Shown: one piece after another, positions 1 to 32,800 of the stretch | How positions within the stretch are numbered: position 1 is the first letter of the stretch | How the letters are laid out: the number at the start of each line of letters is the position of its first letter | Virus record (IMG/VR): IMGVR_UViG_3300040801_003393 | Coordinates: 32,001 to 96,000 of that record | Strand: one strand, 5' to 3' | Origin: a virus | DNA: 64,000 bases | Notes under the pieces: generated by a model | Databases searched by the model: none | Seen by the model: only the letters and a program-made list of their open reading frames with translations | Told to the model about the DNA's origin: nothing | Made by a program: the position numbers and the translations under genes

Positions 1-94
1 AACTCATGTTTTTCTAAGGTTATATTTTAAGGTAATAATAATTTTGAATTTAAGAAAGAATTCATTACTGTGAATTATCCAATTAACGACTTCT

Positions 95-710
95 TTATCG
101 GCTTCCAGGAGGAAGAATCATACTCTGCCCGTCGCCGGGCAAAGTCATGACAGAAAGACACCTCCAGGCGTCAGATACCATTTCGGTAGTGCCCTACTAG
201 TGGATAGCTGCTATGTCTACCCCAAGCACAAGAACCACACATTGATAAGGCGAGCCTATTTTACAATAAGCATGCTGGCGGTTGTCCTATACCAGCGTTT
301 AACCTCGACTCAAACAACGGAACCCTCAGCCAACCTCAATGTGCAAGCAGCGGCATGTTGGGTCGACGGTTGGCGATACTTAAAGTATCTCTGTTTCTTC
401 CAGAGCCGTCATCATTAGCCTTTATACACTATTTTCTAACATCCAAATGGGTTTTACGAAGGCGTATCCCATCATCGTCCTTTGGTAGGATAGTGGATGT
501 TGACCCTGCTATTGCACAAGGATTTGCGTACCTTCTCACATCAGAAAGGATTAGCAGCGCCGTTAACCGCCCGCGCCAGGGCTTTCAATAGTGTATAATG
601 GCTAATAGGTAAAGCCTGTTTGACCTAACGGTTTATCGTCCCGTAGACTAAAGTGATTTGTCCCGACCGTCCCTTCTACGGCCATTCTTGGCTGGGTGCC
701 TGTAGTTGCC
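95..710 (-). ncRNA. Putative large (~600 nt) structured non-coding RNA of unknown class
   Basis: No credible ORF. Long-range stem 414-433/587-606 (19/20 bp) encloses 438-445/494-501 and 504-508/577-581. Further stems at 365-369/406-410 and 665-670/678-683. Two stems have G.U pairs on the minus strand that would be C.A mismatches on the plus strand. Boundaries are approximate. Confidence 0.7.
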
Positions 711-1244
711 TTAAAAATTTACGCCCTGTGTACTAAATGCCTTAATAGAATCGCTATTATATTTAAAAAACATGGTAAATTCACTAATAATCCAGATACT
801 ATTTGTACTATCGCTGGAGTATTGCATGTAGTTATCAAGACCGTTGAGGTGCTCGAAAATTTTCTTTTCTACTGCTACAAATTTACCTTGACGATTAAAC
901 TTTAAAAACATAATGTTTAAATCGCCAATGTCGGCTGCGTCGTATACCTGTCCTATCCATTTATCAATGGTTGCTGACTTGCCGGTATAGAGTTGATGCC
1001 ATGTAAAGTCCTTATAGAACTTTGCTTCTGAATTAAAATATTTCCATTCCAGTGGTGGAATGATATCACCTTTAAATGCGCGAATTTGGCCTTCATGTAA
1101 AAACTCTTTTCGGTGTGCGTTTTTACCACCAACATATGCACCAGAGCTGGGAGTGCGGAGGAATGATTCGTTGTACAATTTGCACATGAAATCAGCTACT
1201 TCTTTTTCCCACCCTGATCCTTTTATTTTTGACGGTGACGGCAT
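711..1244 (-). CDS. PD-(D/E)XK nuclease, Holliday junction resolvase (Hjc)-like
   Basis: KGSGWE...GD...EAK motif; lies downstream of gp47/gp46 recombination genes. Confidence 0.7.
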   Translation of the reverse strand: MPSPSKIKGSGWEKEVADFMCKLYNESFLRTPSSGAYVGGKNAHRKEFLHEGQIRAFKGDIIPPLEWKYFNSEAKFYKDFTWHQLYTGKSATIDKWIGQVYDAADIGDLNIMFLKFNRQGKFVAVEKKIFEHLNGLDNYMQYSSDSTNSIWIISEFTMFFKYNSDSIKAFSTQGVNF

Positions 1245-2341
1245 TAGTTTGTCTCGTATCCTACACCATAATCAAAATCGACATATTGTTGTTGACATTT
1301 AAGATTGCACTCTACCCATGATTTATTTGGGTTATTCCAGGTATTAGTTAACGTTACCCATTTTTCGTCATTTAAGATTTCGATTAACGATCGTGTTTTA
1401 ATAGAGAAGTATTTTCTATTGTTTGAAAAAAAGCTATTTTCATATTTAATAGTTTTAATACCATCGCTTAATTCTTTATACGGGAAACTAACCCAGCTAC
1501 AAGGATGCACTACCCCGTCGGCACTTATATACATCCCCCGGTTACCAACTAAACACAAAGGAACTATATGTTCAGAATATTCTTTTTGGATTTTTTCAAA
1601 TCGGGTTTTATTGGTTTGCATGTACCTTTCGTTTTGGATTCGACGATCGGTTAAATGTTCTACATGGCGCTCATATCGATGCGTCGCAGAGATAAATTCC
1701 TCCCTTGGTTCGAGTGCATCGTCAATTCCATCGTACGCCTCGCCATACTTGCTGCCAAATTTTGTGCTTTTAGTCCATTGAATGGCGTCGCATCCATTTT
1801 GAATAGCCAATGATCTGATACTATCTTGGTGGTCCTGATTAAATCTAAAATATATCGCTGCCCAATTTATAAATGCCGAACTTCGATGACCCATGATGCG
1901 CATACCAGCCATGATAGAGTCAAAGTCTGAGTTTACTCGATATAAGTTATTAGAATCGTGGTCGTAACCATCAACACTAAAATTAATAGAGTCGTACTCA
2001 TTTAGAATCGATGCAAGTTCTTCCCACCAGGCGGGTTTACGATAACTACCGTTAGTAATGGTAAATGTATGGCAGCTCGGCTTAACCTCTTTAACATATT
2101 GAACAATTTCTAAAAATTCTTTATTGTAAATTGGATCACCAACATCACCACAGAAGGTAAACCGTTGTACATTAGATATAATAAATTCTGGAGTAAATGC
2201 TTCCTTAAATTCTTTTAGAGAAATGTCTTGGTTGAGCCACGGAGTTTCAGGGAATTCAGTACGCGGACATCGAGGGCACTTTAAAGTACACCGACTGCTT
2301 AATTCTATGTGCCAATGATATAATTGCCAGTTTACTGCCAT
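1244..2341 (-). CDS. Radical SAM protein with C-terminal SPASM/Twitch-like Cys domain
   Basis: CTLKCPRC motif, GDP, TNGS; C-terminal C...VHPC...C. Confidence 0.88.
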   Translation of the reverse strand: MAVNWQLYHWHIELSSRCTLKCPRCPRTEFPETPWLNQDISLKEFKEAFTPEFIISNVQRFTFCGDVGDPIYNKEFLEIVQYVKEVKPSCHTFTITNGSYRKPAWWEELASILNEYDSINFSVDGYDHDSNNLYRVNSDFDSIMAGMRIMGHRSSAFINWAAIYFRFNQDHQDSIRSLAIQNGCDAIQWTKSTKFGSKYGEAYDGIDDALEPREEFISATHRYERHVEHLTDRRIQNERYMQTNKTRFEKIQKEYSEHIVPLCLVGNRGMYISADGVVHPCSWVSFPYKELSDGIKTIKYENSFFSNNRKYFSIKTRSLIEILNDEKWVTLTNTWNNPNKSWVECNLKCQQQYVDFDYGVGYETN

Positions 2342-2856
2342 AAATCCACCCTTTTAAGTCCTGACATCTCAGTTAATTGTTTAATTTGATGAGCAAGTGT
2401 TAATATATTATATTTTGGAACCGACAAATGTTTGATCATTTGGGTATCTATTGCACCAGGATTATAAATTCTAAGGTCACAGTGACATTCGGACCTAAGG
2501 TCTCTTACCGCTTCTTGTAAAATTTTTTTATGATATCGATACATCCAGAAATTTTGATTTTTTTCTATTTCTAAACGTGGATAATCAGCAGACATACTGC
2601 CAATGGTTACAATGGTTTTTGATGGGTCATCGCTCCATAATCTTGCAAAACACTCTAATACTTTTAATTGTCCGTCATTATCATACGCGCAATTGTATAA
2701 TAAATCAGAGTCAACAAACATTTCTCCCCAAGAAGACACGTTGTGAATGTCGAAGTCAGGACGAGAAATTACTTGTACCAGATTATTTTTGTCAGATTCA
2801 TATACTTTTTTGAGACCGTCAGCCAATCCTTTTTTTCCAGTTATTAAAATGTTCAT
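2332..2856 (-). CDS. Short-chain dehydrogenase/reductase-like protein
   Basis: N-terminal ILITG..GLA Rossmann motif, IGS, YxxxK (YRYHK), NPG. Confidence 0.7.
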   Translation of the reverse strand: MNILITGKKGLADGLKKVYESDKNNLVQVISRPDFDIHNVSSWGEMFVDSDLLYNCAYDNDGQLKVLECFARLWSDDPSKTIVTIGSMSADYPRLEIEKNQNFWMYRYHKKILQEAVRDLRSECHCDLRIYNPGAIDTQMIKHLSVPKYNILTLAHQIKQLTEMSGLKRVDLWQ

Positions 2857-3755
2857 TTATATTTTTGTATAATTAAATCGTCAGTACAACCGGTACATCG
2901 AATTCGGTTACATGTAGTATAGAAAGGTAGTAATTGAAAGTCTTCAACGAGTCCTAATTCGTCGTTACGACAAACACCACTGTATACTTTTAACTTCGAA
3001 TCGATGTGTATTCTTAGGCGTCCAGCTGCACATTTCCATCCTTTCCAAAAATCAAGTTTATCGTTATGAAGAGTATTAGCATGTAACAGAAAGGTTGAAC
3101 CATCATTGGTAGTTGCTTGGCAATTATAATTTATATGATTCTGTAGGTTTTTGATAGAACTCGATGGAGTTATTTCTTCGACGTTATTCCTAAAATTTAT
3201 TTCATTGATACTATAGCTAATAGAATGCTTATCTAAGATTTCTTTATAAGTTATAATTTGTTCTTTATTCCATGGTTCATCCATCACGTTAACATGAAAA
3301 CTTTTTTCTGGACGAATCATGATCTGATTGAGCATAATGGCTGTTTCAAAGAATTTTTCAGAATTAAAAAATTCTGAATGAGTAGAAAATGTTATTGCTT
3401 CGACATGTTTACTTAGTTTTTCATAAAAGTTAAAACTAGCACTACCGTTTGATATTATTAGAATTGAATCAAAGTTTTTGAAATTTTCCCTTAACCATAT
3501 TACAAATGGTAAAAAATCTTTTACAGTGCTAATTTCCCCACCGGTGAACGTTATCTTTATAGGTAGGTCCAATATTTTAATTTGATCGTATATGTGTAAC
3601 CAAGATGATTTGAGAGTCTCAAATGAATGAAATTCTCCAAGTTTGTTGTGTAACTCCGGAGGACAATAAGAACATGCGTAATTACAATGTGAAGTTAACT
3701 CCCAAGTTATAGAGAATATATCTTTGATGGGTCTAATTTCAACAATTTGACTCAT
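2853..3755 (-). CDS. Radical SAM protein with C-terminal Cys cluster
   Basis: CNYACSYC, TFTGGE; C-terminal CAAG...C...CNRIRCTGC. Confidence 0.88.
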   Translation of the reverse strand: MSQIVEIRPIKDIFSITWELTSHCNYACSYCPPELHNKLGEFHSFETLKSSWLHIYDQIKILDLPIKITFTGGEISTVKDFLPFVIWLRENFKNFDSILIISNGSASFNFYEKLSKHVEAITFSTHSEFFNSEKFFETAIMLNQIMIRPEKSFHVNVMDEPWNKEQIITYKEILDKHSISYSINEINFRNNVEEITPSSSIKNLQNHINYNCQATTNDGSTFLLHANTLHNDKLDFWKGWKCAAGRLRIHIDSKLKVYSGVCRNDELGLVEDFQLLPFYTTCNRIRCTGCTDDLIIQKYK

Positions 3756-5509
3756 TAGTTGTTCTCGTATGTAGTAAAACCTGATTCTTTTACTACCCGC
3801 ATGGTATTATGAACTCGACTAATTAATTCGTCACGATGAGAGACCAGCCAAACTGACTTTCCACGGTCGCGAGTCATACGTTTAAGAATCTTAATAGCAG
3901 ACTCAACACCGCTAGTATCTAGGCCACTATCAACTAGTTCATCAATAAACAGCAAGTTGATATGGTTGTATAACGACTCCCATACGTCTCGGAACGCCCA
4001 TGAGAGTGATAGTATAAGCCTATTCCTCTCACCGCGAGATAAGTTATCAAAATCTAAGTCTCTACCTAAATCAGTAATTTCTACAGACAGGTCTGATAAG
4101 AATTTTACTTGATGTGGCAAACCAATCTCTTCTAGATAGTAACCTAATCTACCATTAAGATAGCTTAAATTTTGCTCAATAATCTTTTTACGAATAAAAG
4201 AATCCTTGCTAGTTAACAGGTTTAGCAAGAAGTTCTGATGCTCTTGTATTTCACTTAATCGATTTAGCTCGGTATAGTCAATTTCTTGTAATCCCTTTTT
4301 CCGCATATCTTCAATTTGTTCTTCATACGGATCGGTATCAGCTAATGCAACCTCAAGCTGGTGAGTTAATTTGTCAAGCGTATGCTTATGATCATAAACT
4401 TCAGTAATTGTAGAATAAATGGTTTTGGGCTTTTTACCTAGAACCCCAATCTCTGCAAGTCTTGCAATATGTTCTTCTTTTTGAGTTTCATTACTTAGGT
4501 ATTGTAATGCTTGCTTTGACAACTCTTCTTGTTTAGCAGCACGAATTTCTTCCTGTTTAGAATCGTGGATCTCTTGCCCGCAAGCGTGACACTTATGTTC
4601 TTCAATATGTTTTAGGTCATTCTCCAAAGAAAGTACACGTTTGTTAATATTTTCATTTTCGCGATCAATTTGTGATATCCATTTATTGCATTCATCAATT
4701 GCGGATTTGGATTTATTGTAATTTTCCAATGATTGATGTGCAAGTAGTTCCGCATCAATGTCTAGATCTATTAAATTTTCTAATTGTAATGTAATATGGT
4801 CAACGGTTTCTTTATTTTTAGCAATCCACATTTTCTGGCGTCTTTCTAAGGAAAGAATTTGCTCTTCAATATGTTGATTGGCCTTGATCGTTGCCTGTAA
4901 GCGGAATTCTTCTTCCTTGATTGCGTTTTTGGTTTCCTTGTTTAACTCTTTGAGTGCAACTGCTTTTTCTGATAGTATAGTAATACCGAGCAATTGCTCA
5001 ATGATATTTCTTTGATCATTGGTGCGCATTGACAAGAATGGCTCAGAATATGTGTTTAAAGCTAGAATATGCTTAAACATGTCGTGAGACATTTGCAGCA
5101 ATGCTTCGATTTCTCTCTGTGTGTCGCGACTATCTCCTTGTGCCTCGTCATCCTCATTACCTAATTCTACAGAATTTTTATAGAATTTGAATATAGCAGG
5201 CTTACGACCACGATGTATTTGGTATTCATCGTTGCCAATGGAGAAGTTAACGGTAATGAGCATGTTCTTACCGTTAGTCTTATTAATTAGATTGTCGCGT
5301 TTGATATTAGTTAACGCCTGCCCATATAGAGCATAACTTAAGGCATTTAGAATAGTAGTCTTACCGGTACCATTACGTGAACCGTCTGCTCCTAAATCTA
5401 AATTTTCACCTAACACAAGAGTTAAGTCGCCACGATCAAAATTTATTGATTGGGTGGCATTACCAACACTCATGAAGTTTTTTACAGTTAAATCTTTGAT
5501 ACGAATCAT
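3755..5509 (-). CDS. gp46: Recombination ATPase, T4 gp46/Rad50/SbcC-like
   Basis: KNFMSVG, Walker A NGTGKT, coiled coil with CHAC zinc hook, LSRGE signature, LLFIDE Walker B, VSH. Confidence 0.93.
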   Translation of the reverse strand: MIRIKDLTVKNFMSVGNATQSINFDRGDLTLVLGENLDLGADGSRNGTGKTTILNALSYALYGQALTNIKRDNLINKTNGKNMLITVNFSIGNDEYQIHRGRKPAIFKFYKNSVELGNEDDEAQGDSRDTQREIEALLQMSHDMFKHILALNTYSEPFLSMRTNDQRNIIEQLLGITILSEKAVALKELNKETKNAIKEEEFRLQATIKANQHIEEQILSLERRQKMWIAKNKETVDHITLQLENLIDLDIDAELLAHQSLENYNKSKSAIDECNKWISQIDRENENINKRVLSLENDLKHIEEHKCHACGQEIHDSKQEEIRAAKQEELSKQALQYLSNETQKEEHIARLAEIGVLGKKPKTIYSTITEVYDHKHTLDKLTHQLEVALADTDPYEEQIEDMRKKGLQEIDYTELNRLSEIQEHQNFLLNLLTSKDSFIRKKIIEQNLSYLNGRLGYYLEEIGLPHQVKFLSDLSVEITDLGRDLDFDNLSRGERNRLILSLSWAFRDVWESLYNHINLLFIDELVDSGLDTSGVESAIKILKRMTRDRGKSVWLVSHRDELISRVHNTMRVVKESGFTTYENN

Positions 5510-20841: not shown

Positions 20842-23800
20842 ATGGCAAGAATTCGAAGTGTAGATTTTCTACCAGAGATTTTTAAAACTACAACTAACAA
20901 AAAGTTTTTAGGTTCTACTCTTGATCAGTTAATACAAGAACCAAAACTAAAGGTAACACAAGGTTATATTGGCCGCAGGTCAGGCGCTGGGGTAGGGGTC
21001 AATGACACATATCTCATTGAGCCTACAGTCAGTCGGGAAAATTATCAGTTAGAGCCAGGTATTATTTTTAATGATAAGAATGGTGTTGCAGTTGATGCAT
21101 TAACTTATCCTGGGTTAGTTGACGGGTTGAACGTGCGTGGAGCATTAGTTAATAACCACAATAGATTATTCGAAGCAGAGACCTATTCGTGGGACCCGCT
21201 GTTTAACTTTGATAAATTTGTAAATTATAGTCAATATTATTGGCTACCGGAAGGTCCGTCGTCGGTTAACGTTCAAGCTGAAGAAGTATTGCTTGAAGAT
21301 GAGTTCGATGTCTCTCGGAATGATGGTGATAGTTCATACACCTTTTCCGGTAAAGCTGGTCAAAACCCAATTTTAACTTTAGTTCGTGGTGGAACGTATA
21401 CATTTAATGTAGGACAAACTGGCCATCCATTCTGGATACAAACTGAACCCGGATTGACGGGACATGTAAGTTGGGCGGAAAATATTTCTAGTAGAGAAAT
21501 ACTCGGGGTAGTAAACAACGGTGATGATAATGGTACTATAACATTTAATGTTCCATTGAGCAACGGACAAGATTTCTACGACACACTACTTGACCTAGGT
21601 CCTGTCGACTTAGCAACAATGGTTAAATTTAATGAAATTAACCGTAAGCCACTGGACGAAATCGTTTCAATTAACGAGATCGAAAACCTCGAAAATAAAA
21701 CTATTGTATTTGTTAACCCAACGGTCGGCGATGCAACTACCTTGGGTTGGGTAATCGAGGCATTACCAAATTATGCCGACTATAGTAATAGCGGAGATTT
21801 CAGCACCACAACCGTATTGACGTCGTTGTCAGAAAGATATCAGATTTTTAAAATTTTTATTGTATATGACAACTGGGGCGAAAACCCAATTATTAATTTG
21901 GTCCCTATTCAAACTGTAAATCAGTTTGAGAAGTTTACTATTCAATATGGACCAGTGTATAGTAATATCGGCTTTTATAAAAATTCCTCCGGTGTATTTG
22001 AACAAATTCCGAGAATAACTGCACCACTTGACCAACTATTCTACCAAGACGGCAACAATGAAGATATCTTTGGTGTTATTAACTTAGTTGACGCAAACGA
22101 ATCAGCTACTTTGTTTATTTCAGATATCATTGGAAATGATTCTTATACTAGCCCAAATGGCGTCGAGTTTACTAACGGTCTTAAAGTAAAATTTAGAGGC
22201 GATGTAGTTCCAGCAGAATATACCAACGAAGAGTATTATGTAGAAGGTGTAGGCACATCTATTAAGCTATTACCGGTAAGAGATTTTATTACGCCTGAGC
22301 CATATACTAAAAATGCATCAGATCCATTTGACTCGTTGCCATACGATTCCATTGCATATGATGGTAGTTTAAACTCACCGCTTGAAGAAGATTACTTAAC
22401 GATTAATAGAGCCAGTCAGGATCTGAACGCTTGGACTAGATCAAATCGTTGGTTCCATATTGATGTATTGCAAAAGTCGGCAGACTATAACAATGTAACA
22501 TTGGTTGTAGATCAGACTAGTAGAGCAAAGCGACCAATAATTGAATTCGAATCAAACTTGCAACTTTTTAACTTCGGCGCGGTTGCAAAAACACCCGTTA
22601 ATGTAATAGATACAAAAGAAGTAGATGCATTAAGTAACGTTCATGGTAGTCTGGGTTATGCAGTCGACGGATTTATTTTGTCCGAGGGCTCACGTATAAT
22701 CTTTGCAGCCGATACTGACCCGAATGTAAAAAATAAAATTTTTAATGTATCGTTTGAGGACCTGGACAATAGCGGAACAGAAACGTTAGTTTTAACGTTG
22801 GCCGAAGATGGCAACGTAGTTGAAGACGACGTAGTATTGGTTACCAGTGGATTAACGCAGCAAGGAAAAACATACCACTTTAGTAACAATCAGTGGGTAT
22901 TAGCACAGCAAAAGAATAGTGTAAACCAGCCACCGTTATTTGATATTTTTGACAACGACAATATTAGTTTCTCTGATATTTCAAAATACCAAGCATCAAC
23001 ATTTAAAGGAAGCAAACTTTTTAGTTATGCAATTGGTAACGGTTCAAACGATATTGTATTAGGGTTCCCACTACAGTATCTAAACATTGGCAACCTTGGC
23101 GATATTGTTTTTGAAAATAACTTGTATATAGATACATTTTTGTATGTTGAAAATTCAGTCAGCCAGGAACTTCCAATTAGCAGTGGATTTGTTAAGCAGT
23201 TCTCATCAGCAACAGAGTACAATTGGCGCATTGGTTGGACTAGATCTGCAGAAAGAATGTATGTCCCTCAAGTGTTTAACTTTACATATACCGGAGCACC
23301 ATTACAATTAGATGTAACACCAAGAACAGATTTAGAAGTCCCGTCTATTAAAATATTTGTTAACAACTCTTTTGTTCCGTCAACAGATTATGCAGTAACG
23401 ACGCATGACAGGGGAACGACGATTGCATTTAATGAAATTGTTGCTACAGATTCAAAAGTAGAGGTGCTAATTTACTCTGACGAGGTTAGCGACATCGGTT
23501 ACTATGAAGTGCCACGAAACCTGTCACAGAATATTTTTAATGAAAATACAGATAGGTTGACATTAGGAACAATTAGAAATCACTATAATAGCCTAGCACA
23601 AAATATTTTAAACCTAGTAGGAAATATCAACGGTGCTAATAACATTAGAGACCTAGGCAATGTTTCGAGTTACGGCGATATTATAATACAGCATGCCGCA
23701 CCGTTAGCATTGGCTGCTAAGTTTATTCGCACACGAGAGTACGACCTGTTTGAGGCAATTAAATTCAATGGTCGGTATTACGAAAAGTACAAGAATCAAT

Positions 23801-26800
23801 TATTAGATTGGGTGCAAAAAAACGATATTGCAGATCTTTCAATTGACGAAATTTTAGAACATGCAGTAGCAAATATTACGGCTGGTAAAACCCTCGACCA
23901 TGCATTTTATAATTCAGATATGTTACCAGCCGGCAATGATTACGACGTTGTAACCCATCAAATTACAGCGATCAGTACAGATACATTCGATATCATTAAT
24001 GTATATGATTTTACAAAGGCCAACTCGAAAGCCATATTAGTATATCTTAACGATACGCTGTTGGTTAAAGATCATGACTATATTGTAGCTGACGACGGCC
24101 CAAGGATAACACTATTAATCGACTCAAACATTGACGATATTTTGACAATAAAAGAGTACAGGGACACAGCTGGGTCAATGTTGCCTGCCACCCCAACCAA
24201 GTTGGGTTTGTATCCAAAGTATCTGCCAGAAAAGTTTGTAGACAATACATTCATTACACCAACTGAAGTTATTAGGGGTCACGACGGATCTATAACCGTT
24301 GCATTCGGTGACCTTAGAGATGACGTTTTGTTAGAATTTGAACGTCGCATATACAATAACATCAAGGTCAATGATAATATTCCGTTGTTATCTGATGATG
24401 TTATACCAGGACAGTATCGTAATACTGGTTATTCAGATATTGAAATAACAGAAATTCTGTCACCGTCATTCTTATCTTGGGTTGGTTGGAACCGACTTGA
24501 TTATAGGGAGCAAGACTATAGAGCAAATGATAGTCGCACCTGGAACTATAGCTCTTCGAGTAGCGTAATAGATGATTCTCTCTTAAAAGGTCATTGGCGT
24601 GGAGTATTCAAATATTTCTATGATACAGACGCTCCACATACACGACCATGGGAAATGTTAGGTTTAACTGAAGAGCCATCCTGGTGGGAAAATCAGTACG
24701 GTCCTGCACCATATACATCAGGCAACTTAGTTCTATGGGATGATCTAGAAGCTGGTATAATCCGGGACCCAAATGGAGAGTATATTGACGAAAGATATAT
24801 TCGTCCAGGACTAACAGATATAATTCCTGTCGACGGCGAAGGTAATTTACTAACGCCAATGGAAACGGTTGTTAAGACCTATTCGTCATACAACTTTAAA
24901 AAATCCTGGAGAATCGGCGATTTGGCACCAGTTGAGGCTGCCTGGAGACGTTCTTCATTATGGCCGTTCGCAGTACAACGATTGTTGGCCCTAACTAAGC
25001 CAGCACAATATTTTGCACTAATGGCTGACAGAGATCGTTACACATATAACGAGGAACTTCAGCAGTACCTATTAGATGGAAGATACCGTCTTGATTCTCG
25101 AGCAATCGAAGTATTAACATCGGATACTCCAAAACACAGTTACATTAACTGGATTATTGAATACAATAAACATTATGGTTATAACTCGGCTGACGAATTA
25201 GTTGAGAGTTTAAGTAACCTTGATGTTAACCTTTGCTATAGAATGGGCTCATTCACTGATAAGAATAGACTGAAGATTTTTACAGATAAGAGCTCGCCAG
25301 ATTCTACTAACAATAGTTTACTCCTACCAGATGAAAGCTATAACTTGTTACTGTATAGAAACCAACCATTTGACGAAATTATATATTCATCGGTTATTGT
25401 ACAAAGAGTTGAAGACGGATATTCAGTATTTGGTAACTCAACAACTGACCCGTATTTTAAAATAATGCAGAGCATTCCAAATGGAAACTTTAAAACTTTC
25501 CAAATTGGTCGAACAACAAAGTCAGCAACAACTATTAGAGTTCCGCAGGACTTTAGAGATTCTGTAGTTTACATTCCATACGGATACGTCTTCTCCAATA
25601 AGCACCAGGTAGTAGATTTCTTAGTAAGTTACGGTGAATACTTGTCTCGTGTTGGTGTCAAATTTAACAACAGTCAAGATACAGTAGATCTCGATTGGAC
25701 ACAAATGGCCAAGGAGTTTATATACTGGGTTGATCAGGGTTGGAGTATTGGAAGTGTTATTAACCTAAACCCAACAGCAGAATCATTGGAGTTTGAGCGA
25801 GAGTTAGCAATTGTTGATAGTTTACTTAATTTAGCAGTTAATGAGCAACCTCTCGATCAAAACAATATACCATTGGCGCCTGCTGATTATGTAATCGATC
25901 GACTTGAGAATAACTTTAAGTTGACGACACTCAATGATCGCATTTTAAGTTACCTAAATCTCCAGTTAACCAGCTTCGAACACTTGTTAATATTAGATAA
26001 CACAAGTATTTTCAATGATGTAATTTATTCGCCAGTGACCGGAGTCAGGCAGAACCGAGTTAAACTTGTTGGCTATACAGTTAACGAGTGGAACGGTCAA
26101 CTTGATGCGCAAGGATTTTTATTTAGTGACAATAAAATTGATGAATGGGTCTACACAAAATCCTATAGTAAAGGAAGCATTGTTAAGTTTAAGAATTCAT
26201 ATTGGACTGCAATAAAACCAATAAACCCATCGGAGATGTTTGATTACGACGCATGGGTTAAGATCGAGCCTAGCGATATATCAACTGGATTGTTATCTAA
26301 CCTAGCTACAAAGTCTGATCAAATGTTGCAATTCTATAACAATAAAACTGCAAACCTTGAATCAGATGCAGATTTGTTGGCATTAGGTTTAACTGGTTTT
26401 AGACCTCGTGAGTATATGTCATCATTGGATCTAGACGACATCTCGCAGGTAAACATCTATAGTGACTTAATAAAACAAAAAGGAACTTTAGACAGTTTAG
26501 GAATGTTTAAGAACATAACACTAAACGGAAACAAAACTGAATATAAGATTTTCGAAAACTGGGCAATACGTCGGGCACAATATGGTGCAACTGCGTCGCG
26601 AGCTTATTTTGAATTGCAACTAGACGAAGCGCAGCATAACGCAAATCCAACGTCAATTGCTATAGTAAATGGCCCAACTGAAGTAACAGATGCTGACCAG
26701 AAAGTTACTCTGAATCAGATTTACAAACAAAGTGTAAAGCATACCTCAAAAGATATTTTACCTTTGTTAACTGAAAAAGTTACAGACGTAAGTCTACCAT

Positions 26801-29800
26801 ATGCTGGATTTGTTGACTTTGAAGATGTAGATTTCTATACCTTCTCGTTAGATACGTTTGAAACCATTGACGCAAATTTAAGTGATATAATTGATAGTAC
26901 ACTAATTTGGGTCGCTAAAGATACAGATTATGACTGGAACGTATATCGTGTTACCGCTATAAGTCCGCCTGTTGTTCGAGTGCAAGATAACTTAAATGGA
27001 ACTTTAACAATTGAGTTTGCAGCACCACACCAGCTAACAGCAAATACAGTTATTATTATCAAGTATTTTGATAGTCAGATAGATGGAACATATCGAGTTA
27101 ATGGAATTGTTAACGAAAAGAAGGTACAAGTCAATGGATCATTGTTAGAAGATCAAACAGTAATTGAAGATGAAGTTGGCTCGGCGTTTAAGTTAGTGTC
27201 AGTTAGGGTTGATTACCCATCATCAATTGTAGACTCGCCATTTGACAAGCAATTATTTGCTGATGATCGTATTTGGGTTAACAATGACGGTGGATTAGCG
27301 AGAGTATATGAGAAAGAACGTGCGTTTACTTCAGTTGGATCACTCGAGTCAACTGTATCTTCGAGCGAGTCTGATTTTGGATCAGCAATTGCGCAAGGAA
27401 GAAACAATACCGGGGCAATAGTTGGCGACGTGCTTAATAATGGTAGCAAAGGTATACTTTATTGCTATAATAAGGCTACAGCATCAGAATATATTTTACA
27501 TAGCTTATTAGACTTATCGCATTTACCAGTTAACCATTTAGGAAAAACGCTAGCAATGGCAACCAATGTTGCTGCGGTAGCGGCTGATGGCATGGTAGCA
27601 ATTATTAATCGTAATGTTGCTAAGGACGTATTTGAGTTTACACAAATATTACCAGAATACCCAAGTGGGTTTGGTCAGGCAATTACAATAAGTGCCGATG
27701 AACGTTGGTTGTTTATTACCGAGTACGAGCAATTTTCCGATGACCCATATCTGACTCTTGATACGCAACGGTTGCACATTTACCAGCAAATTAAATATCA
27801 GGACCAGGAAGTCACCTATACTGCCACCGGAACACAAACACAGTTTGAATTAGAAGGATATGTTGTAATAGGTACAACAGCGTCGGCAAATAATCAGGTA
27901 ACTGTTACAGTTAATGGAAATAAAGTAACAAATTATGTTGTAAATGGGCCAACTATACAATTTACATCTGCACCACCAGCTGGCGCCATTGTAAATATTC
28001 GTCGTAACGATATACAAACATTTGAAAGTGACGGTTCAACTACTACATTTACAGTTAATGGACTGCATGCTATTAACGGCATTGAGTCTATTTCTGTATA
28101 TGTTGAGAATAAGATTTTACGTCCGAACGAGGACTATACCTTTAGTGGCATAGATTTAGAATTGTTAGTTGCACCACCAGCAGGAGATGCAATAACCGTA
28201 AGAACGGGCAACTATTATGTCGAAGTGTCGGAGATAGATTTTAACGTTGATGATGCACAATATGGTTTATCCATTGATGTTGGCGAAGATGCCCAACAAA
28301 TAGTTGTTGGCGCACCTGGACTTTCTGAACATGGGCCAAGTAGTACAACCGTTAATAATGTTGGGCGAGTTATACTTTACAATAGAGCAGTTGAACGGTT
28401 TGTTGCTACAATAGATGGGCAAGCCGGCGTTACAACTTTACGCACACCTAAGGCAACATCTCAAGTTTGGGTGAATGGTGTACCTCTAGAGCCTGCACAG
28501 TTTAATAAAAACCCACAGTATACAATAAGTGGAAATATTATAACCTTAACTGGTGTTGAAATTAAGGCAGGTGATTTTATTGATGTTGACATTAATGATT
28601 TCATAGACTATCAAACATTAGATATAAACGTCCCACGTGAAGATGCTCTTTTTGGTAGCGCAGTTAGCCTATGTCGTTCGGAGTGTGCATTGTATGTAGG
28701 TGCACCTGGCGACATAATCTCAGGGAAGAAAGATGCAGGTTCAGTGACACGATTTGTTAATATGTCAAGAATGACTGGGGTACTAGTTGGTACAAATCAA
28801 AATCCAACAGTCACAGTTGGCGATTCAATTAGAGTTAACAACGTTGAGGTTATTTTTACCAACACGAATGTTGAACAAGTAGCTACCGACATTAATAATA
28901 CGTTAATACCTAACGTACGAGCATATGTAAGTGATGGATACTTGGTTATTGAACTTAAAAATAAAGAAGTAGCATCTTTAGCTAATAGGTTGAAAGTTAC
29001 ACCTGGGCGGTCAGCAATCAATAACGACATTGAGGCGTTTAATAACTTAGGTTTAGCTCCATATCAGTATACTCAAACAATTACCGCTCCAGATCCAGAG
29101 AGTTTTGGTCGATTCGGAAATGCTGTACAAATTGATTATAACATGAATCAGTTGTATGTTGCAGCCGAGAACATGAGTGCGAAAAAGATTGCTATATTTG
29201 ATAATAGAGAGACAACGTTTGACGGAAGAACTTTACGATTTGTTGATATATACGATCGATCTGGTGTAGTTTATACATATGATGTTCTACGTGACGAGAC
29301 TAGATTTACTCCAGGTAAACTAGCATATGGTGAACAAGTATACGACTTTAAATTGCAAAATTCAAATGGATTTGGCCAACGCATTAGTGTAGTTGATGGA
29401 CTAATGATGGTGGGTTCACCAGGATATGACGAGCCAACTGTTGATGCTGGTAGGGTTGCATTGTTCTATAACTTCAAGCGTAAGCTGACCTGGACTGACA
29501 TTAAAGTTGAACAGCCTAGAACAGACGTAACGTTAATTAATAGCGCATTTATCTACGACTACACAACAAGTCAAGTAAAACAATACCTTGACTATATCGA
29601 TCCATTGAATGGAAAAATACTAGGCCCAGCAGCACAAAACCTAGATTACATTCGCGGCGACGATCCAGCACAATACATGGCCTCTACCGAAGGCCCATTA
29701 TGGGGCGAAGCACAAGTTGGCCAAATGTGGTGGGATACATCTACGGTACGATTCCTAGACTATTTCCAGGATGATATTAAGCGCGGTTTGAAACGATGGG

Positions 29801-32800
29801 GTAAAACTTTCCCAGGTAGTTCCATTGATGTTTACGAATGGGTAGAGTCAAGTCTTCCACCAGCACGTTATACTGGCGAAGGCGAAGTGTATGACTTAAA
29901 CAAATATGTTTCTGTAACATTAGTCAATGAGCAACGTATCATTGAGAGCAAACATTACTTCTGGGTTAAGGGTATATCGCAGGTAAACAAAAATGCATAT
30001 AAGACACTCGGCGCCGAAGCAGTTGCTACATACATCGAAACACCAAGTGCGTCGGGTCTGCCGTATCTGGCATTAATAAATGCAAGTACAATCGGAATGT
30101 TTAATATGACATCCGAGATTGATGTTAAAAATGTTATCTTGCATGTTGAATATGATAAGGTACGCAATGATAGCAAAGTATTTGTAGAGTTTGATCTATT
30201 GCGTGAAGGAGACGAAAGAGATACACTATCTCCTAGCGTATATAAAAAGATGCTAGATAGTTTCTGCGGAGTTGACTCGTTAGGAAACGCGGTTCCAGAT
30301 ATTAATCTAACCATTACTGATAGATACGGAATTGACTTTAGACCACGCAAGTCTATGTTTGTAGATAGGTTTGCAGCATTGTCAATGTATATACAAAAAG
30401 TCAATGGCATAATTGCACAGTATCCGGTTGCTGAATCTAAGGTATATCCTTTACTGAATAGTAAAGAAGAACCGCCTGCTGCTAACACAGGAGCATGGGA
30501 TCTTCGCGTTGCAGACAATGCAGAATTATCGTATCAGAACTTTAATATTGTTCCTGCAGGATACAAGTATTTGGTAGAAATTGATAGCAACAACAATGGC
30601 CTGTGGTCAATATATGAAGTTCAAGCAAATAAAACGTTACAGTTGATTGTAGTACAAAGTTATGATACAAGACAGTTTTGGAACTATATTAACTGGTACG
30701 CAGATGACTTTAATCCATTGACTAAACCAGATATTGTTGTTGACACTTATGCGCAACTATTGACTATCGTTAAAGAAGAAGGTCGTGTTGCTAGAGTAAA
30801 CTTGAACGCAAATGGTAACTGGGAAATATATCGTTGCCAAAACAATATTTGGGAACGTGTAGGTCTACAAAACGGAACCATTGCCTTCTCGACGCAGTTG
30901 TACGATTATTCTCTCGGTAGGTTTGGCTTTGATAACGAAGTTTTTGATGCGCAATATTTTGATCAGGAACCAGTAATCGAACTGCGTAATATTTTACGTT
31001 CAATCAATGAGGAAATATTAGTAGGCGACTTAGCTCTTGAACGCAACAATGTTCTAATAGCGGTGTTCAAGTATATTCTGTCAGAACAACAAAACGTAGA
31101 TTGGTTATATAAAACATCATTGATTGATGTTTCGCATAAAGTTAGAACATTAGATTCATTTTCAGTCTATCAGAAAGAAAATCAGAATTATGTTATCGAC
31201 TATATCAACGAAGCTAAACCATATCATACAAAAATTAAAGAATTCCGACTCGGCTACGACGGGTTTGACCAGTATAACGGTTTGGTAACTGACTTTGATT
31301 GTCCATCATACTATGATTCAGAGTTCGATCAATTTATTAGTCCAATTCTTGACGATGGTGCAATTTTAGTAACAGACCCAAGTAATAAAGCACCAACTGA
31401 TCCAATTTGGGGAGAATTCCCATGGAGTTCCTGGTACTCAAATTATAAATTGCAAATCAGTGTAATCGAGGTACTAGACGGTGGCGCTGGATACACTATT
31501 CCACCACAGGTTAAGATTGTTGGTGATTGCGAAGAACCTGCTATTTTAGAAGCCCGTGTTAGTGGTAGCGGACAAATTACAGAGGTTCGTGTAATAACGC
31601 CAGGGTGTGGTTATTTGGATACTCCAGTTATAACATTCATAGGTGGTAACGGCAGTGGCGCTTCAGCAAAAGCAGTTATGCGTAATGATCTAGTTAGATC
31701 ATTTACTTTAACCATAAAATATGACCGTTACGAATATACATCCTCGGTCTTAAACTGGGAAGATACAGTTACACGAAATATTGATGATTTAATAAGATTC
31801 AACAATACCGTATACCGGGTCAAAGAATCAAATAACGATTTAACTTTTGTGTCGAGCAAATACGAAGAAGTTAATATCGAAGAATTGTCGGGTATTGATC
31901 GTACTGTCGGGTATTATGTACCGGATGTTAATAAACCAGGATTAGATTTATCGTTACTTGTTGACGGTATTGTGTTCCCGGGAGTACAGGTTGATGGCCC
32001 TGGATTTAATTTAAGTTCTGGATTTGATGTTCAGTTTTGGGATACAGATCTGTTTGATAGTATTGTATATGGTCCAGAAGGATACCCAACGTATCCTGCA
32101 AGTGCAATAGATACAATATACGAAAGTTCATTCCTAGACGGATATCTAGGAACACGGGCAACAGATATAAATGTAGACGGTGGAGAATTTATTGATGTTT
32201 ATCATTCCCACGCCCCAGAGGAGCTAGTTCCTGGCTCAATGTTTGATACATTAAGCATTAGTGTTTACTCTCGCCCAGGTGCTGATTGGTTAAATGATGG
32301 TCATAGTTATGCATATCTAGCAGAAACATTTAATGTAACTACAGTTCCGGCAATGGTGAGTTTTGCAAATATTGCAGAATACCCAATTACTGTATTTGTA
32401 GTAAACGCAACAACAAAACGTACCCTATACGAAACTATAGATTTTACCGTTGATTGGATTAATCAGACAGTGTTAATAACTGATGATATAGCAATTAACG
32501 ATAACGTTAAGGTTTTTATTAGTGAAATTGGCGGTGGTGATCAACTTCACCGAGAAATTATATTTGGTAACGAAGTAGTCAATGATCGTTACGAAATTCC
32601 AGTTAATGCGTCTGAAATTAAAGAAGTTATTGTTTTTGCTAACGGAGTAAGATTGCAGAACATAACAGTTGAGGCGATTGATAGCTATAGTTCAAATGTG
32701 GTGTTCTCAGACACATTAACAGCGAATGAGTTTGTAACAATAACAGTATTTGGTATTAGCTCCCCATACGATGAGAATTATTTGCAGACATTTACGTTTG

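What the first reader, a model, noticed from the sequence alone, without database searches (positions are those of the whole stretch)
95..710. Candidate large structured phage ncRNA (~600 nt), apparently co-transcribed with the recombination-nuclease operon
Seen: a gene-dense genome leaves >600 nt without a credible ORF, and the stretch is visibly more GC-rich than its flanks and packed with nested complementarity. A 20-bp long-range helix (414-433/587-606, one mismatch) closes two multibranch domains (438-445/494-501 with inner hairpins; 504-508/577-581). A three-way junction 365-410 holds GATACT/AGTATC and CTCTG/CAGAG arms. Other hairpins include GCUGG-UAUAGGACAACCG-CCAGC, UACC-GAAAU-GGUA and ACUUUGCCC/GGGCAGAGU. 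G.U wobbles in two stems point to the minus strand. The element starts right after the TAA of the PD-(D/E)XK nuclease, with no terminator between them. I could not match it by eye to RNase P, tmRNA or group I/II intron consensus motifs. Inference: a ribozyme-sized RNA or RNP scaffold, possibly partnering the resolvase or gp46/47 in recombination-dependent replication or packaging.
Basis: partly seen in the sequence, partly recalled or inferred. Interest (0 to 1): 0.85.

Follow-up and report, generated by a model that had tools for sequence, protein, structure and literature searches.

The report
Enlarged twin-box Polynucleobacter-1 phage RNA
The gene-free stretch behind a small nuclease gene of this uncultured giant T4-like phage encodes a real, large folded RNA on the minus strand: a divergent, enlarged member of a widespread phage RNA family of which only the first third is catalogued (Rfam Polynucleobacter-1) and whose function is still unknown.

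Summary
Window 95-710 has no credible ORF and is more GC-rich than its flanks. Its minus strand folds far better than shuffles (z -5.8, against -2.2 for the plus strand). The 20-bp long-range helix is there. Window 437-581(-) is a full-length match to the orphan Rfam motif Polynucleobacter-1 (54 bits, cut-off 37).

That motif is only the 5' third of a conserved ~430-500-nt RNA with three predicted pseudoknots. I found it in more than 120 uncultured T4-like phage contigs, always between the gp46 recombination genes and a converging baseplate-hub gene. This scan has described the family before on other DNA ("twin-box RNA").

The window's copy is a lone, divergent, enlarged member (~600-740 nt). 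It keeps the conserved-loop hairpin, the GUUGU pseudoknot strand, the UUUGCCC hairpin and two near-identical boxes (CCUGGAGG / CCUGGAAG).

The upstream gene here is a PDDEXK nuclease. Most relatives have a GIY-YIG nuclease there instead. Relatives with either nuclease carry the same box word, so the nuclease is unlikely to read the boxes.

Function is unknown. No partner sequence for the boxes turned up nearby or in six phage records. Expression is untested, because no RNA run holds this sequence.

The parts
711..1244 (-). 177-aa PDDEXK_15 (Hjc-like) nuclease gene directly upstream of the RNA. It occupies the position that a 142-aa SegE-type GIY-YIG gene holds in most relatives.
   Evidence: Pfam PF24608 E 5e-22; PHROG 244 'RusA-like Holliday junction resolvase'. 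The GD..EAK motif is intact in the translation. Homologues stand upstream of the RNA in L009, L023 and L126.
617..710 (-). GC-rich variable spacer or leader between the nuclease stop codon and the conserved RNA.
   Evidence: In a near-relative contig (run X1), 617-702 is replaced by 54 unrelated bases while both flanks stay alike. No promoter-like or terminator-like site on the minus strand here.
586..607 (-). 5' strand of the long closing helix. UUAGCC (600-605) corresponds to the family's short AGCU/GGCU closing helix. 587-599 is a window-specific 12-bp extension.
   Evidence: Inverted repeat I1, 20 nt, 95% complementary; present in the MFE fold. Homology of the outer part is inferred from the alignment and the consensus.
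437..581 (-). Polynucleobacter-1 motif (Rfam RF01718), full length: hairpins P1-P3 and the P4 domain with the core CACUAUCC..GGACGAUGAU (471-495).
   Evidence: cmscan 54 bits against a cut-off of 37, E 7.6e-10, model 1-141 of 141. nhmmer profile of 68 non-window relatives, E 7e-8.
413..435 (-). 3' strand of the long closing helix, holding the family-conserved AAAGGCUAA block (415-423).
   Evidence: A near-relative has an uncompensated A>U at 422 and another lacks 421, so the extension is tolerant or weakly constrained.
361..410 (-). Three-way junction. GACGG/CCGUC closes the hairpins CUCUG..CAGAG (389-405) and GAUACU..AGUAUC (375-389). The closing helix matches the family's P5 (GCGG/CCGC, GUGG/CCAC, AGGG/CCCU in relatives).
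   Evidence: A relative carries a 14-nt insertion inside the GAUACU hairpin, and another has A>G at 388, giving G.U with U376.
314..320 (-). CCGUUGU: 5' strand of the family's pseudoknot with the ACAAC of the conserved hairpin loop.
   Evidence: In the family, columns 230-232 covary with 258-260 (UA:54/CG:32; GC:47/AU:34; UA:74/GC:8). The window keeps both strands, and nhmmer aligns them.
303..311 (-). X1-like segment GAGUCGAGG. Its GAGU repeats the GAGU of the 3' strand of the UUUGCCC hairpin and could pair with GACUU (142-146) instead.
   Evidence: In the family, X1 'NAAGAC' carries the same N as the hairpin's 3' strand 'NAAG' in 78 of 87 sequences. The window case is read from the sequence and is an inference.
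274..296 (-). Hairpin GCUGG / CCAGC with the conserved 13-nt loop UAUAGGACAACCG, the hallmark of the uncatalogued 3' domain.
   Evidence: CM R1, built without the window, matches 276-294 at E 0.0037 in the 381-nt stretch downstream of the Rfam hit. The nhmmer full-length profile hit runs from 576 to 276, E 4.6e-10. Stem pairs covary in the family.
161..168 (-). Box 1, CCUGGAGG.
   Evidence: CM R1 aligns this place with the family's ACUC-box1. Coordinates.
122..145 (-). Hairpin ACUUUGCCC-GGCGAC-GGGCAGAGU, homologous to the family's CUUUGCCC..GGGCAAAG hairpin between the two boxes.
   Evidence: (CM R1 hit 96-231, E 0.025, model 1-128).
102..109 (-). Box 2, CCUGGAAG, identical to box 1 at 7 of 8 positions.
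   Evidence: In the family the two 7-mers are identical in about 97 loci and differ between loci.
1..101 (-). AT-rich tail. The probable 3' end is at two hairpins at L001:1028-1067 (window 3 to -36), so the window's edge cuts the element.
   Evidence: Relatives also carry one or two hairpins 100-130 nt after box 2. The end itself is inferred; no RNA data.

Best explanation
Window ~95-607 (minus strand), with a variable leader up to 710 and a tail that probably runs past the window's first base, is the gene for a large multi-domain non-coding RNA. It is a divergent, enlarged member of a family carried once per record in the six records checked, all uncultured T4-like phages (some ~345 kb), at a fixed place: after the gp46-type recombination genes and a small nuclease gene, facing a converging baseplate-hub gene. 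The family's 5' third is the orphan Rfam motif Polynucleobacter-1. The uncatalogued 3' two-thirds hold covarying helices, three predicted pseudoknots and two single-stranded 7-nt 'boxes' that flank a GC-rich hairpin and are identical within each phage but differ between phages.

Inferred working, not shown. The RNA is made as the 3' end of the early/middle recombination operon and then acts in trans as a compact folded RNA. The two matched boxes are its reading heads for two copies (or two sites) of one sequence-matched partner not encoded nearby. A segment (X1) that mimics the 3' strand of the inter-box hairpin may let the 3' domain switch between two pairings.
For: Identity. RF01718 at 437-581(-), 54 bits against a cut-off of 37. 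Minus-strand fold z -5.8 against -2.2 for the plus strand.

Family. The pattern scan found at least 120 viral loci. Conservation runs ~430 nt past the upstream ORF. Rfam matches only the first ~140 nt of a typical member.

Homology of the window's 3' part. The nhmmer profile of 68 non-window members hits C1:32576-32276 at E 4.6e-10, through GGUAUAGGACAACCGCC. The UUUGCCC hairpin hit is collinear. CM R1 gives E 0.0037 and 0.025 in the downstream 381 nt. Blocks GGCUAA..CGGCUCUG..CAACCG..GGGUUCCGUUG are shared with the divergent members L022, L045 and L071.

Structure. Covariation score is 0.306 against 0.102 in shuffles, 0 of 500 as high. Mutual information recovers the Rfam helices, three long-range pairings, the box1 = box2 identity (GG:48/AA:38, no mixed states at position 1) and X1 = hairpin 3' strand.

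Synteny. gp46-like, nuclease, RNA, converging baseplate hub, in both the family and the window. One copy per record in six records.

Near-relatives in four DNA runs keep the RNA, with G.U-compatible changes on the minus strand only.

PDDEXK-type loci L009 and L126 carry AGAUAAU, as do 18 GIY-YIG loci. GIY-YIG is single-copy in the complete genome G001 and absent from the sequenced parts of the PDDEXK-type records G000 and G005.
Against: No transcript evidence of any kind: no RNA run holds the sequence. Strand and ends rest on computation.

The window's 3' half matches the family only weakly. The full-window CM search gives E 0.6, and the 3' nhmmer hits alone give E 0.07-0.5 genome-wide. The window's boxes differ at one position, unlike about 97 family members. 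No close relative of this enlarged variant was found, so its extra helices (the 12-bp extension, the three-way junction) have no covariation support, and two relatives show uncompensated changes in the extension.

For the trans-partner idea, no complement of the box is enriched in cis, within ~7 kb of flanks, or at a conserved place in one complete and five partial phage records. The partner is therefore hypothetical. The closest protein pair with different boxes still differs at 7 residues, so a protein reader is not excluded by that test.
Confidence: 0.75

Rival explanations
1. The RNA is the working partner of the adjacent small nuclease, as a guide, scaffold or inhibitor. Its two identical boxes would serve the two halves of a dimeric junction-cutting enzyme.
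For: A small nuclease gene lies directly upstream in about 102 of 110 resolved loci (98 GIY-YIG, 4 PDDEXK) and one gene further upstream in at least four more. Two unrelated nuclease folds occupy the same slot. The GIY-YIG gene is single-copy and fixed, unlike a typical homing endonuclease. The 142-aa GIY-YIG protein has little beyond the catalytic domain. No pair of identical proteins with different boxes was found.
Against: The same box word AGAUAAU occurs behind both PDDEXK and GIY-YIG nucleases. A reader of the box would then have evolved the same specificity twice. Both nucleases also fit a plain role as the junction resolvase of the gp46/47 recombination module. A weak hint for that role: no T4 gp49-type Endonuclease_7 was detected in the 99%-complete relative G001, but the control genomes did not ring either. 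A 7-nt guide is too short for DNA targeting.
Confidence: 0.1
2. It acts only in cis, as a structured 3' end of the recombination operon that stabilises the mRNA against 3' exonucleases or insulates converging early and late transcription.
For: It lies at a convergent junction of transcription units in the window and in the complete relative G001. There is no own promoter signal. Hairpins follow the tail.
Against: About 430 nt with three predicted pseudoknots, invariant loops and sequence-matched boxes is far more than termination or stabilisation needs. The upstream gene can be swapped or separated by an inserted gene without loss of the RNA.
Confidence: 0.08
3. It is a replication-origin transcript (an R-loop primer as at T4 oriF/oriG), with the direct-repeat boxes and the AT-rich tail acting at the DNA level.
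For: It sits next to replication and recombination genes. Two direct repeats about 51 bp apart flank a GC-rich palindrome and are followed by an AT/A-rich tract.
Against: Helices covary as RNA pairs, including G.U. The locus is a convergent junction, not a divergent one, and cumulative GC skew in the complete relative shows no extremum there. There is one copy per record. No reverse transcriptase in G001.
Confidence: 0.05
4. It is the remnant or 3' part of a self-splicing intron or other mobile element carrying a homing endonuclease gene.
For: The commonest neighbour matches the SegE GIY-YIG family. Pyrimidine-rich ACUC/AUCU precede the boxes.
Against: No group I or group II Rfam match, even at E 1. 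No split host gene: the downstream gene varies in identity and strand. Fixed single-copy position. The nuclease start codon overlaps the stop codon of the upstream radical-SAM gene.
Confidence: 0.02

Closest known systems
Polynucleobacter-1 RNA motif (Rfam RF01718; Weinberg et al. 2010, Genome Biol 11:R31, PMC2864571)
   Same: Window 437-581(-) is a full-length match above the gathering score. The 2010 supplement already notes that the motif lies downstream of a conserved gene family related to a cyanophage gene and is common in fresh-water and estuary metagenomes.
   Different: The Rfam model covers 141 nt. The conserved RNA is ~430-500 nt, and ~600+ nt here. The 3' two-thirds (conserved-loop hairpin, pseudoknots, twin boxes) are not in Rfam 15. 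In 2010 no purified phage carried it and it was filed as possibly cis-regulatory. It is now seen to be a phage gene at a fixed locus.
GOLLD, ROOL and OLE large ornate RNAs (Rfam RF01998, RF03087; cryo-EM: Nature 2025, PMC12286853)
   Same: Large, intricately folded, phage- or prophage-associated non-coding RNAs of unknown biochemical function, found by comparative genomics.
   Different: No sequence or structure match. Different hosts and contexts. Nothing here shows multimer formation. GOLLD and ROOL are not described as having sequence-matched twin boxes (my own knowledge).
HEARO / omega RNA of IscB, and TnpB reRNA (nuclease-associated structured RNAs)
   Same: A structured RNA in fixed adjacency to a small nuclease gene.
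   Different: No Rfam match. The variable part is 7 nt and present twice, not a 15-20-nt guide at one end. The same RNA and box occur with two unrelated nuclease folds. No transposon ends.
T4 gene 60 translational bypass signal
   Same: Two matched short words about 50 nt apart flanking a hairpin. In most members the box reads sense codon + UAA/UGA.
   Different: No ORF runs into box 1 (median 7 open codons upstream), and a stop codon follows box 2 as well, so bypass would gain nothing. This is a resemblance only.

Membership tests
Polynucleobacter-1 (RF01718) | Covariance-model score at or above the curated gathering score over the full model | tested here: met
   54 bits against 37, model 1-141 of 141, E 7.6e-10
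Polynucleobacter-1 (RF01718) | Conserved core CACUAUCC-loop-GGACGAnGAU inside the P4 closing helix | tested here: met
   Window 471-495. P4 arms 438-445/494-501 pair 8 of 8. The loop is one base longer than in the main family.
Polynucleobacter-1 (RF01718) | Lies downstream of the GOS11034-type gene (seen here as the small SegE-type GIY-YIG gene; the equation of the two is my inference) | tested here: not met
   The upstream gene is a PDDEXK_15 nuclease, and no SegE_GIY-YIG is in the 110-kb record. The locus is otherwise the same.
Full-length 'twin-box' phage RNA (this scan's own family; not published as far as I could find) | Hairpin with the conserved 13-nt loop UAnnGGACAACCG, and an upstream GUUGU able to pair with ACAAC | tested here: met
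   Window 274-296 and 314-320. CM R1 E 0.0037. The nhmmer alignment includes both.
Full-length 'twin-box' phage RNA | GC-rich hairpin CUUUGCCC..GGGCAAAG flanked by two identical 7-nt boxes | tested here: inconclusive
   The hairpin is present (122-145). The boxes CCUGGAGG / CCUGGAAG match at 7 of 8, not fully. Another divergent member, L045, also differs at one position.
Full-length 'twin-box' phage RNA | Pseudoknot between the loop of the hairpin before GUUGU and a segment after the conserved-loop hairpin (UUAGCGU / ACGCUAA in the family) | tested here: inconclusive
   The window has two candidates in the right topology: CACAUUGA (336-343) with UCAAUGUG (238-245), 8 of 8, and GCUGCU (346-351) with AGCAGC (207-212). 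Neither has covariation support.
Full-length 'twin-box' phage RNA | Synteny: gp46-like ATPase, small nuclease, RNA, converging baseplate-hub gene | tested here: met
   Two radical-SAM genes and a 174-aa gene are inserted between gp46 and the nuclease in the window.
Group I / group II introns | Match to intron core models; split host gene around the element | tested here: not met
   No Rfam match at E up to 1. Flanking genes are intact and unrelated.
RNase P RNA, tmRNA, GOLLD, ROOL, HEARO, OLE, raiA | Match to the Rfam model | tested here: not met
   cmscan of the whole window at gathering scores, and of 1-5000 at E up to 1, gave only RF01718. ARAGORN found no tmRNA or tRNA in the window.

The most novel reading that the evidence does not exclude
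The family is a new class of phage RNA device. A knotted core holds two identical, freely evolving 7-8-nt single strands that capture two copies (or two sites) of a sequence-matched nucleic acid made elsewhere, by phage or host. An internal mimic (X1 against the hairpin's 3' strand) switches the 3' domain between two pairings. The window's copy, with GGAG/GGAA-type boxes and extra helices, would be a re-targeted variant.
Probability: 0.2. Interest if true: 0.85.

Novelty: new variant of a known kind. Interest (0 to 1): 0.6.

Why it matters
Large RNAs with many conserved unpaired bases and several pseudoknots are rare. The few classes solved so far turned out to be ribozymes, RNP cores or unexpected RNA assemblies. 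This one is carried by giant T4-like phages that are abundant in lakes and seas, at a fixed place beside the recombination genes. Only its first third has been catalogued, since 2010, and with no function.

The rule that two 7-nt words change together yet have no complement anywhere nearby is not explained by any mechanism I know. The window adds a natural outlier: extra helices, a different neighbouring nuclease, and boxes that differ at one position.

Tried and rejected
1. blastn of the window RNA and of a typical member against 50,697 GenBank phage records: no match.

2. Search for close relatives of the window's enlarged variant:
- The exact 21-mer of its core in viral contigs gave 0 matches.
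- The nuclease protein in metagenome contigs found no relative.
- The 7-nt-loop core pattern in metagenome contigs gave 85 matches, none a family member by nhmmer.

3. Core pattern in 185,579 species genomes: 120 capped matches, none a full-length member. This is uninformative on hosts.

4. Sequencing runs: no RNA holder listed. The four DNA holders were laid for variants only.

5. Complement of the box:
- No positional enrichment within -1.5 to +2 kb.
- No covarying cis partner in any RNA region, with or without G.U. The U-rich strand of P4 can pair with most boxes, but equally well with permuted boxes.
- No enrichment in 715 kb of flanks.
- No conserved context in six phage records.
- An apparent hit at the GIY-YIG start was a coding coincidence, the Trp-Tyr-Tyr-Gln codons.

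6. tRNA reading of the box. The positions that would face tRNA 32, 37 and 38 do not fit tRNA rules. The ±7-kb loci hold no tRNA genes. Rejected as unsupported.

7. Translational bypass or a small ORF: no conserved frame.

8. Reverse-transcription template: no RVT_1 in the 99%-complete relative.

9. Origin: no skew extremum, and a convergent junction.

10. T4 late promoter TATAAATA upstream of the RNA: 0 of 86 loci.

11. RNAalifold on the raw MAFFT alignment of the 3' domain gave a poor structure because one hairpin strand was misaligned. I supplied the helices by hand instead.

12. Plus-strand ORFs of 72 and 78 aa: no family.
Full report
WHAT IS IN THE WINDOW

The window is bases 32001-96000 of a 110,538-bp IMG/VR virus record estimated to be 31% complete. 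On the minus strand a gp46-like ATPase gene (3755-5509) is followed by:
- a radical-SAM gene;
- a 174-aa gene;
- a radical-SAM/SPASM gene;
- a 177-aa PDDEXK_15 (Hjc-like) nuclease gene (711-1244).

After the nuclease stop codon, about 800 nt hold no credible gene, until a 70-aa minus-strand ORF that lies outside the window. Beyond that a baseplate-hub gene converges on the plus strand. The two plus-strand ORFs inside the gap (72 and 78 aa) have no family support.

CHECK OF THE OBSERVATION

GC is 0.46-0.50 across 101-700 and 0.28-0.40 in the flanks. The minus strand of 95-710 folds to -214.7 kcal/mol (z -5.8 against dinucleotide shuffles). The plus strand gives z -2.2.

The listed hairpins are in the MFE fold.

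One pairing, 504-508/577-581, conflicts with the Rfam structure for the same bases.

PARTLY KNOWN: THE RFAM HIT

cmscan finds one family in the whole window: Polynucleobacter-1 (RF01718) at 437-581 on the minus strand, at 54 bits against a cut-off of 37, covering model positions 1-141. Only the 2010 discovery paper in the searchable library mentions this motif. Its supplement says the motif lies downstream of a conserved gene family with a cyanophage relative and was not found in any purified phage.

THE MOTIF IS THE FIRST THIRD OF A MUCH LARGER RNA

In 98 of 110 loci with a resolved upstream ORF, a ~142-aa SegE-type GIY-YIG gene ends 85-115 nt before the core on the same strand. At least 310-560 nt with no ORF of 80 aa or more follow the core in nearly all loci.

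Alignment of 87 distinct loci shows conserved blocks for ~430 nt. In a typical member Rfam matches only the first 142 nt, at 118 bits.

Mutual information on that alignment recovers the Rfam helices and adds:
- a pairing of the 5' leader with the P3 loop;
- a hairpin-loop pseudoknot, UUAGCGU with ACGCUAA (CG:69/UA:15; GC:65/AU:19);
- a pseudoknot of GUUGU with the ACAAC of an otherwise invariant 13-nt loop (UA:54/CG:32; GC:47/AU:34);
- two nested helices around that loop.

On a separate 52-sequence alignment of the 3' domain, the three helices I named score 0.306 for covariation against 0.102 in shuffles (0 of 500 as high). They pair in 89.9% of cells against 40-60% when the partner is slid by 1-3 columns.

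TWIN BOXES (A LEAD FROM EARLIER NOTES OF THIS SCAN, RE-TESTED HERE)

The 7-mer after ACUC and the 7-mer after AUCU, about 51 nt apart and flanking the hairpin CUUUGCCC..GGGCAAAG, are identical in about 97 loci. They differ between loci: GGAUAAU, AGAUAAU, GGAUGAA, AGAUGAG, GCAUAAU, GAAUAAU, AGCAGAA, GUCGAAA. At the most variable positions there are no mixed states (GG:48/AA:38; AA:50/GG:36).

The boxes are the ends of two ~30-nt look-alike modules: AAGUG(UG)AC..CAA.YUCY + box.

I also found a second identity-type covariation. The base N in X1 'NAAGAC', just after GUUGU, equals the N of the hairpin's 3' strand 'NAAG' in 78 of 87 sequences. X1 can therefore form a 5-bp alternative helix with the hairpin's 5' strand. 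This suggests either a two-state fold or a base triple. I cannot tell which.

WHAT READS THE BOXES

I could not find a reader.
- No complement is enriched at any position within -1.5 to +2 kb.
- No region of the RNA pairs with a locus's own box better than with other loci's boxes.
- 715 kb of flanks show no enrichment.
- In one 99%-complete and five partial phage records, no box or anti-box occurrence shares a conserved context across records with different boxes.
- There is no reverse transcriptase in the complete relative.
- No ORF runs into the boxes.
- The positions do not fit pairing with a tRNA anticodon loop (my reasoning).

THE NEIGHBOURING NUCLEASE

The window's PDDEXK_15 nuclease replaces the GIY-YIG gene at the same slot. 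So do its homologues in L009, L023 and L126 (44-51% identity), each followed at once by a typical compact RNA; the full-length copies, L009 and L126, score 254-309 bits.

The complete relative G001 has exactly one SegE_GIY-YIG gene, the one beside the RNA. The PDDEXK-type records G000 and G005 have none in their sequenced parts. No T4 gp49-type Endonuclease_7 was detected in G001, but the control genomes did not ring, so this is weak.

L009 and L126 (PDDEXK) carry AGAUAAU/AGAUAAU, the same word as 18 GIY-YIG loci.

I therefore read the nuclease as a fixed, replaceable member of the gp46/47 recombination module, probably a junction resolvase. That role is an inference. The test of identical proteins with different boxes could not be made: the closest such pair differs at 7 residues.

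HOW THE WINDOW'S COPY FITS THE FAMILY

It is an outlier. A profile of 68 non-window members matches C1:32576-32276 (window 576-276) at E 4.6e-10, through CCGUUGU and GGUAUAGGACAACCGCC. The UUUGCCC hairpin is a separate, collinear, weak hit.

A covariance model of the 3' domain, built without the window, finds the conserved-loop hairpin (276-294, E 0.0037) and a full-model alignment of 96-231 (E 0.025) when only the 381 nt downstream of the Rfam hit are searched. Over the whole window these are not significant (E 0.6).

The window shares the blocks GGCUAA..CGGCUCUG..CAACCG..GGGUUCCGUUG with the divergent members L022, L045 and L071.
- The outer six pairs of the 20-bp helix (UUAGCC/GGCUAA) correspond to the family's short AGCU/GGCU closing helix. 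The inner 12 bp are an extension of this lineage.

The boxes are CCUGGAGG (161-168) and CCUGGAAG (102-109), matching at 7 of 8. No close relative of this variant was found in viral or metagenome contigs.

NEAR-RELATIVES IN PUBLIC DNA RUNS

Four runs from four studies hold short contigs 90-100% alike.
- Four A>G changes (103, 388, 501, 507) keep pairs as G.U on the minus strand only.
- One relative has a 14-nt insertion in the GAUACU hairpin.
- One replaces 617-702 with 54 other bases, so the first ~95 nt after the nuclease are a variable spacer.
- Changes at 421 and 422 in the helix extension are not compensated.

ENDS AND EXPRESSION

No sigma-70-like promoter or terminator lies between the nuclease and the RNA. 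No T4 late-promoter word lies upstream in 86 loci. Co-transcription with the operon followed by processing is the simplest reading, but it is untested.

Downstream, the GC-rich fold ends near 95. An AT-rich tail leads to two hairpins at L001:1028-1067, which straddle the window's first base. Relatives have similar tail hairpins 100-130 nt after box 2.

No RNA run holds the sequence, so expression is not addressed either way.

VERDICT

This is a real RNA gene. It is a member of RF01718 by score and a divergent, enlarged member of the uncatalogued full-length family that this scan has met repeatedly on other genomes.

Function is unknown. My preferred working model is a trans-acting knotted RNA whose two matched boxes engage a sequence-matched partner, possibly gated by the X1 switch. 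This is inference.

The rivals are less likely for the reasons given under each: partner of the nuclease, cis-acting operon end, origin transcript, and intron remnant.

Noticed in passing
window 20842-34392 (+): A single open reading frame of 4,516 aa. A weak nhmmer match of the RNA's 3' profile (window 31503-31575, E 0.03) falls inside it and is a chance match in coding sequence.
   Followed up: partly
window 1244-3755 (-): Two radical-SAM genes (one with a SPASM domain) and a 174-aa gene with no family are inserted between the gp46-like gene and the nuclease. Relatives have only an ~84-aa gene there. This may be a peptide- or nucleotide-modifying cassette inside the recombination operon.
   Followed up: no
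window 74-80 (-): UUGGAUAAUUC: the family's commonest box word, GGAUAAU, stands 22 nt downstream of the window's own box 2, in the AT-rich tail. It could be a vestigial box or chance (roughly 0.06 expected).
   Followed up: partly
window 198-205 and 491-498; 274-283 and 565-574: The RNA repeats AUCCACUA (the motif core) once more in its 3' domain. The P1 loop GGCGGUU is complementary to the invariant AACCGCC of the conserved-loop hairpin (10 nt, 90%). These are possible lineage-specific tertiary contacts, without covariation data.
   Followed up: no
L001:756-968 (-), i.e. just outside the window's start: A 70-aa Cys/His-rich ORF with its own promoter-like site follows the RNA tail. No family was found.
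   Followed up: partly
G001 (record behind L008), 287.9-308 kb: The 345-kb, 99%-complete relative carries 28 tRNA genes and a permuted tmRNA (tag ANDEQFALAA). These phages bring a large set of translation RNAs besides the twin-box RNA.
   Followed up: no
G003 (record behind L045), 87164-87240: A tRNA with anticodon CUA (reads UAG) in a phage whose twin-box RNA is also divergent. This may indicate stop-codon reassignment or suppression.
   Followed up: no
G000:C1:96074-96149 (just past the window's end): tRNA-Thr(UGU), the only tRNA in the 110-kb record.
   Followed up: no
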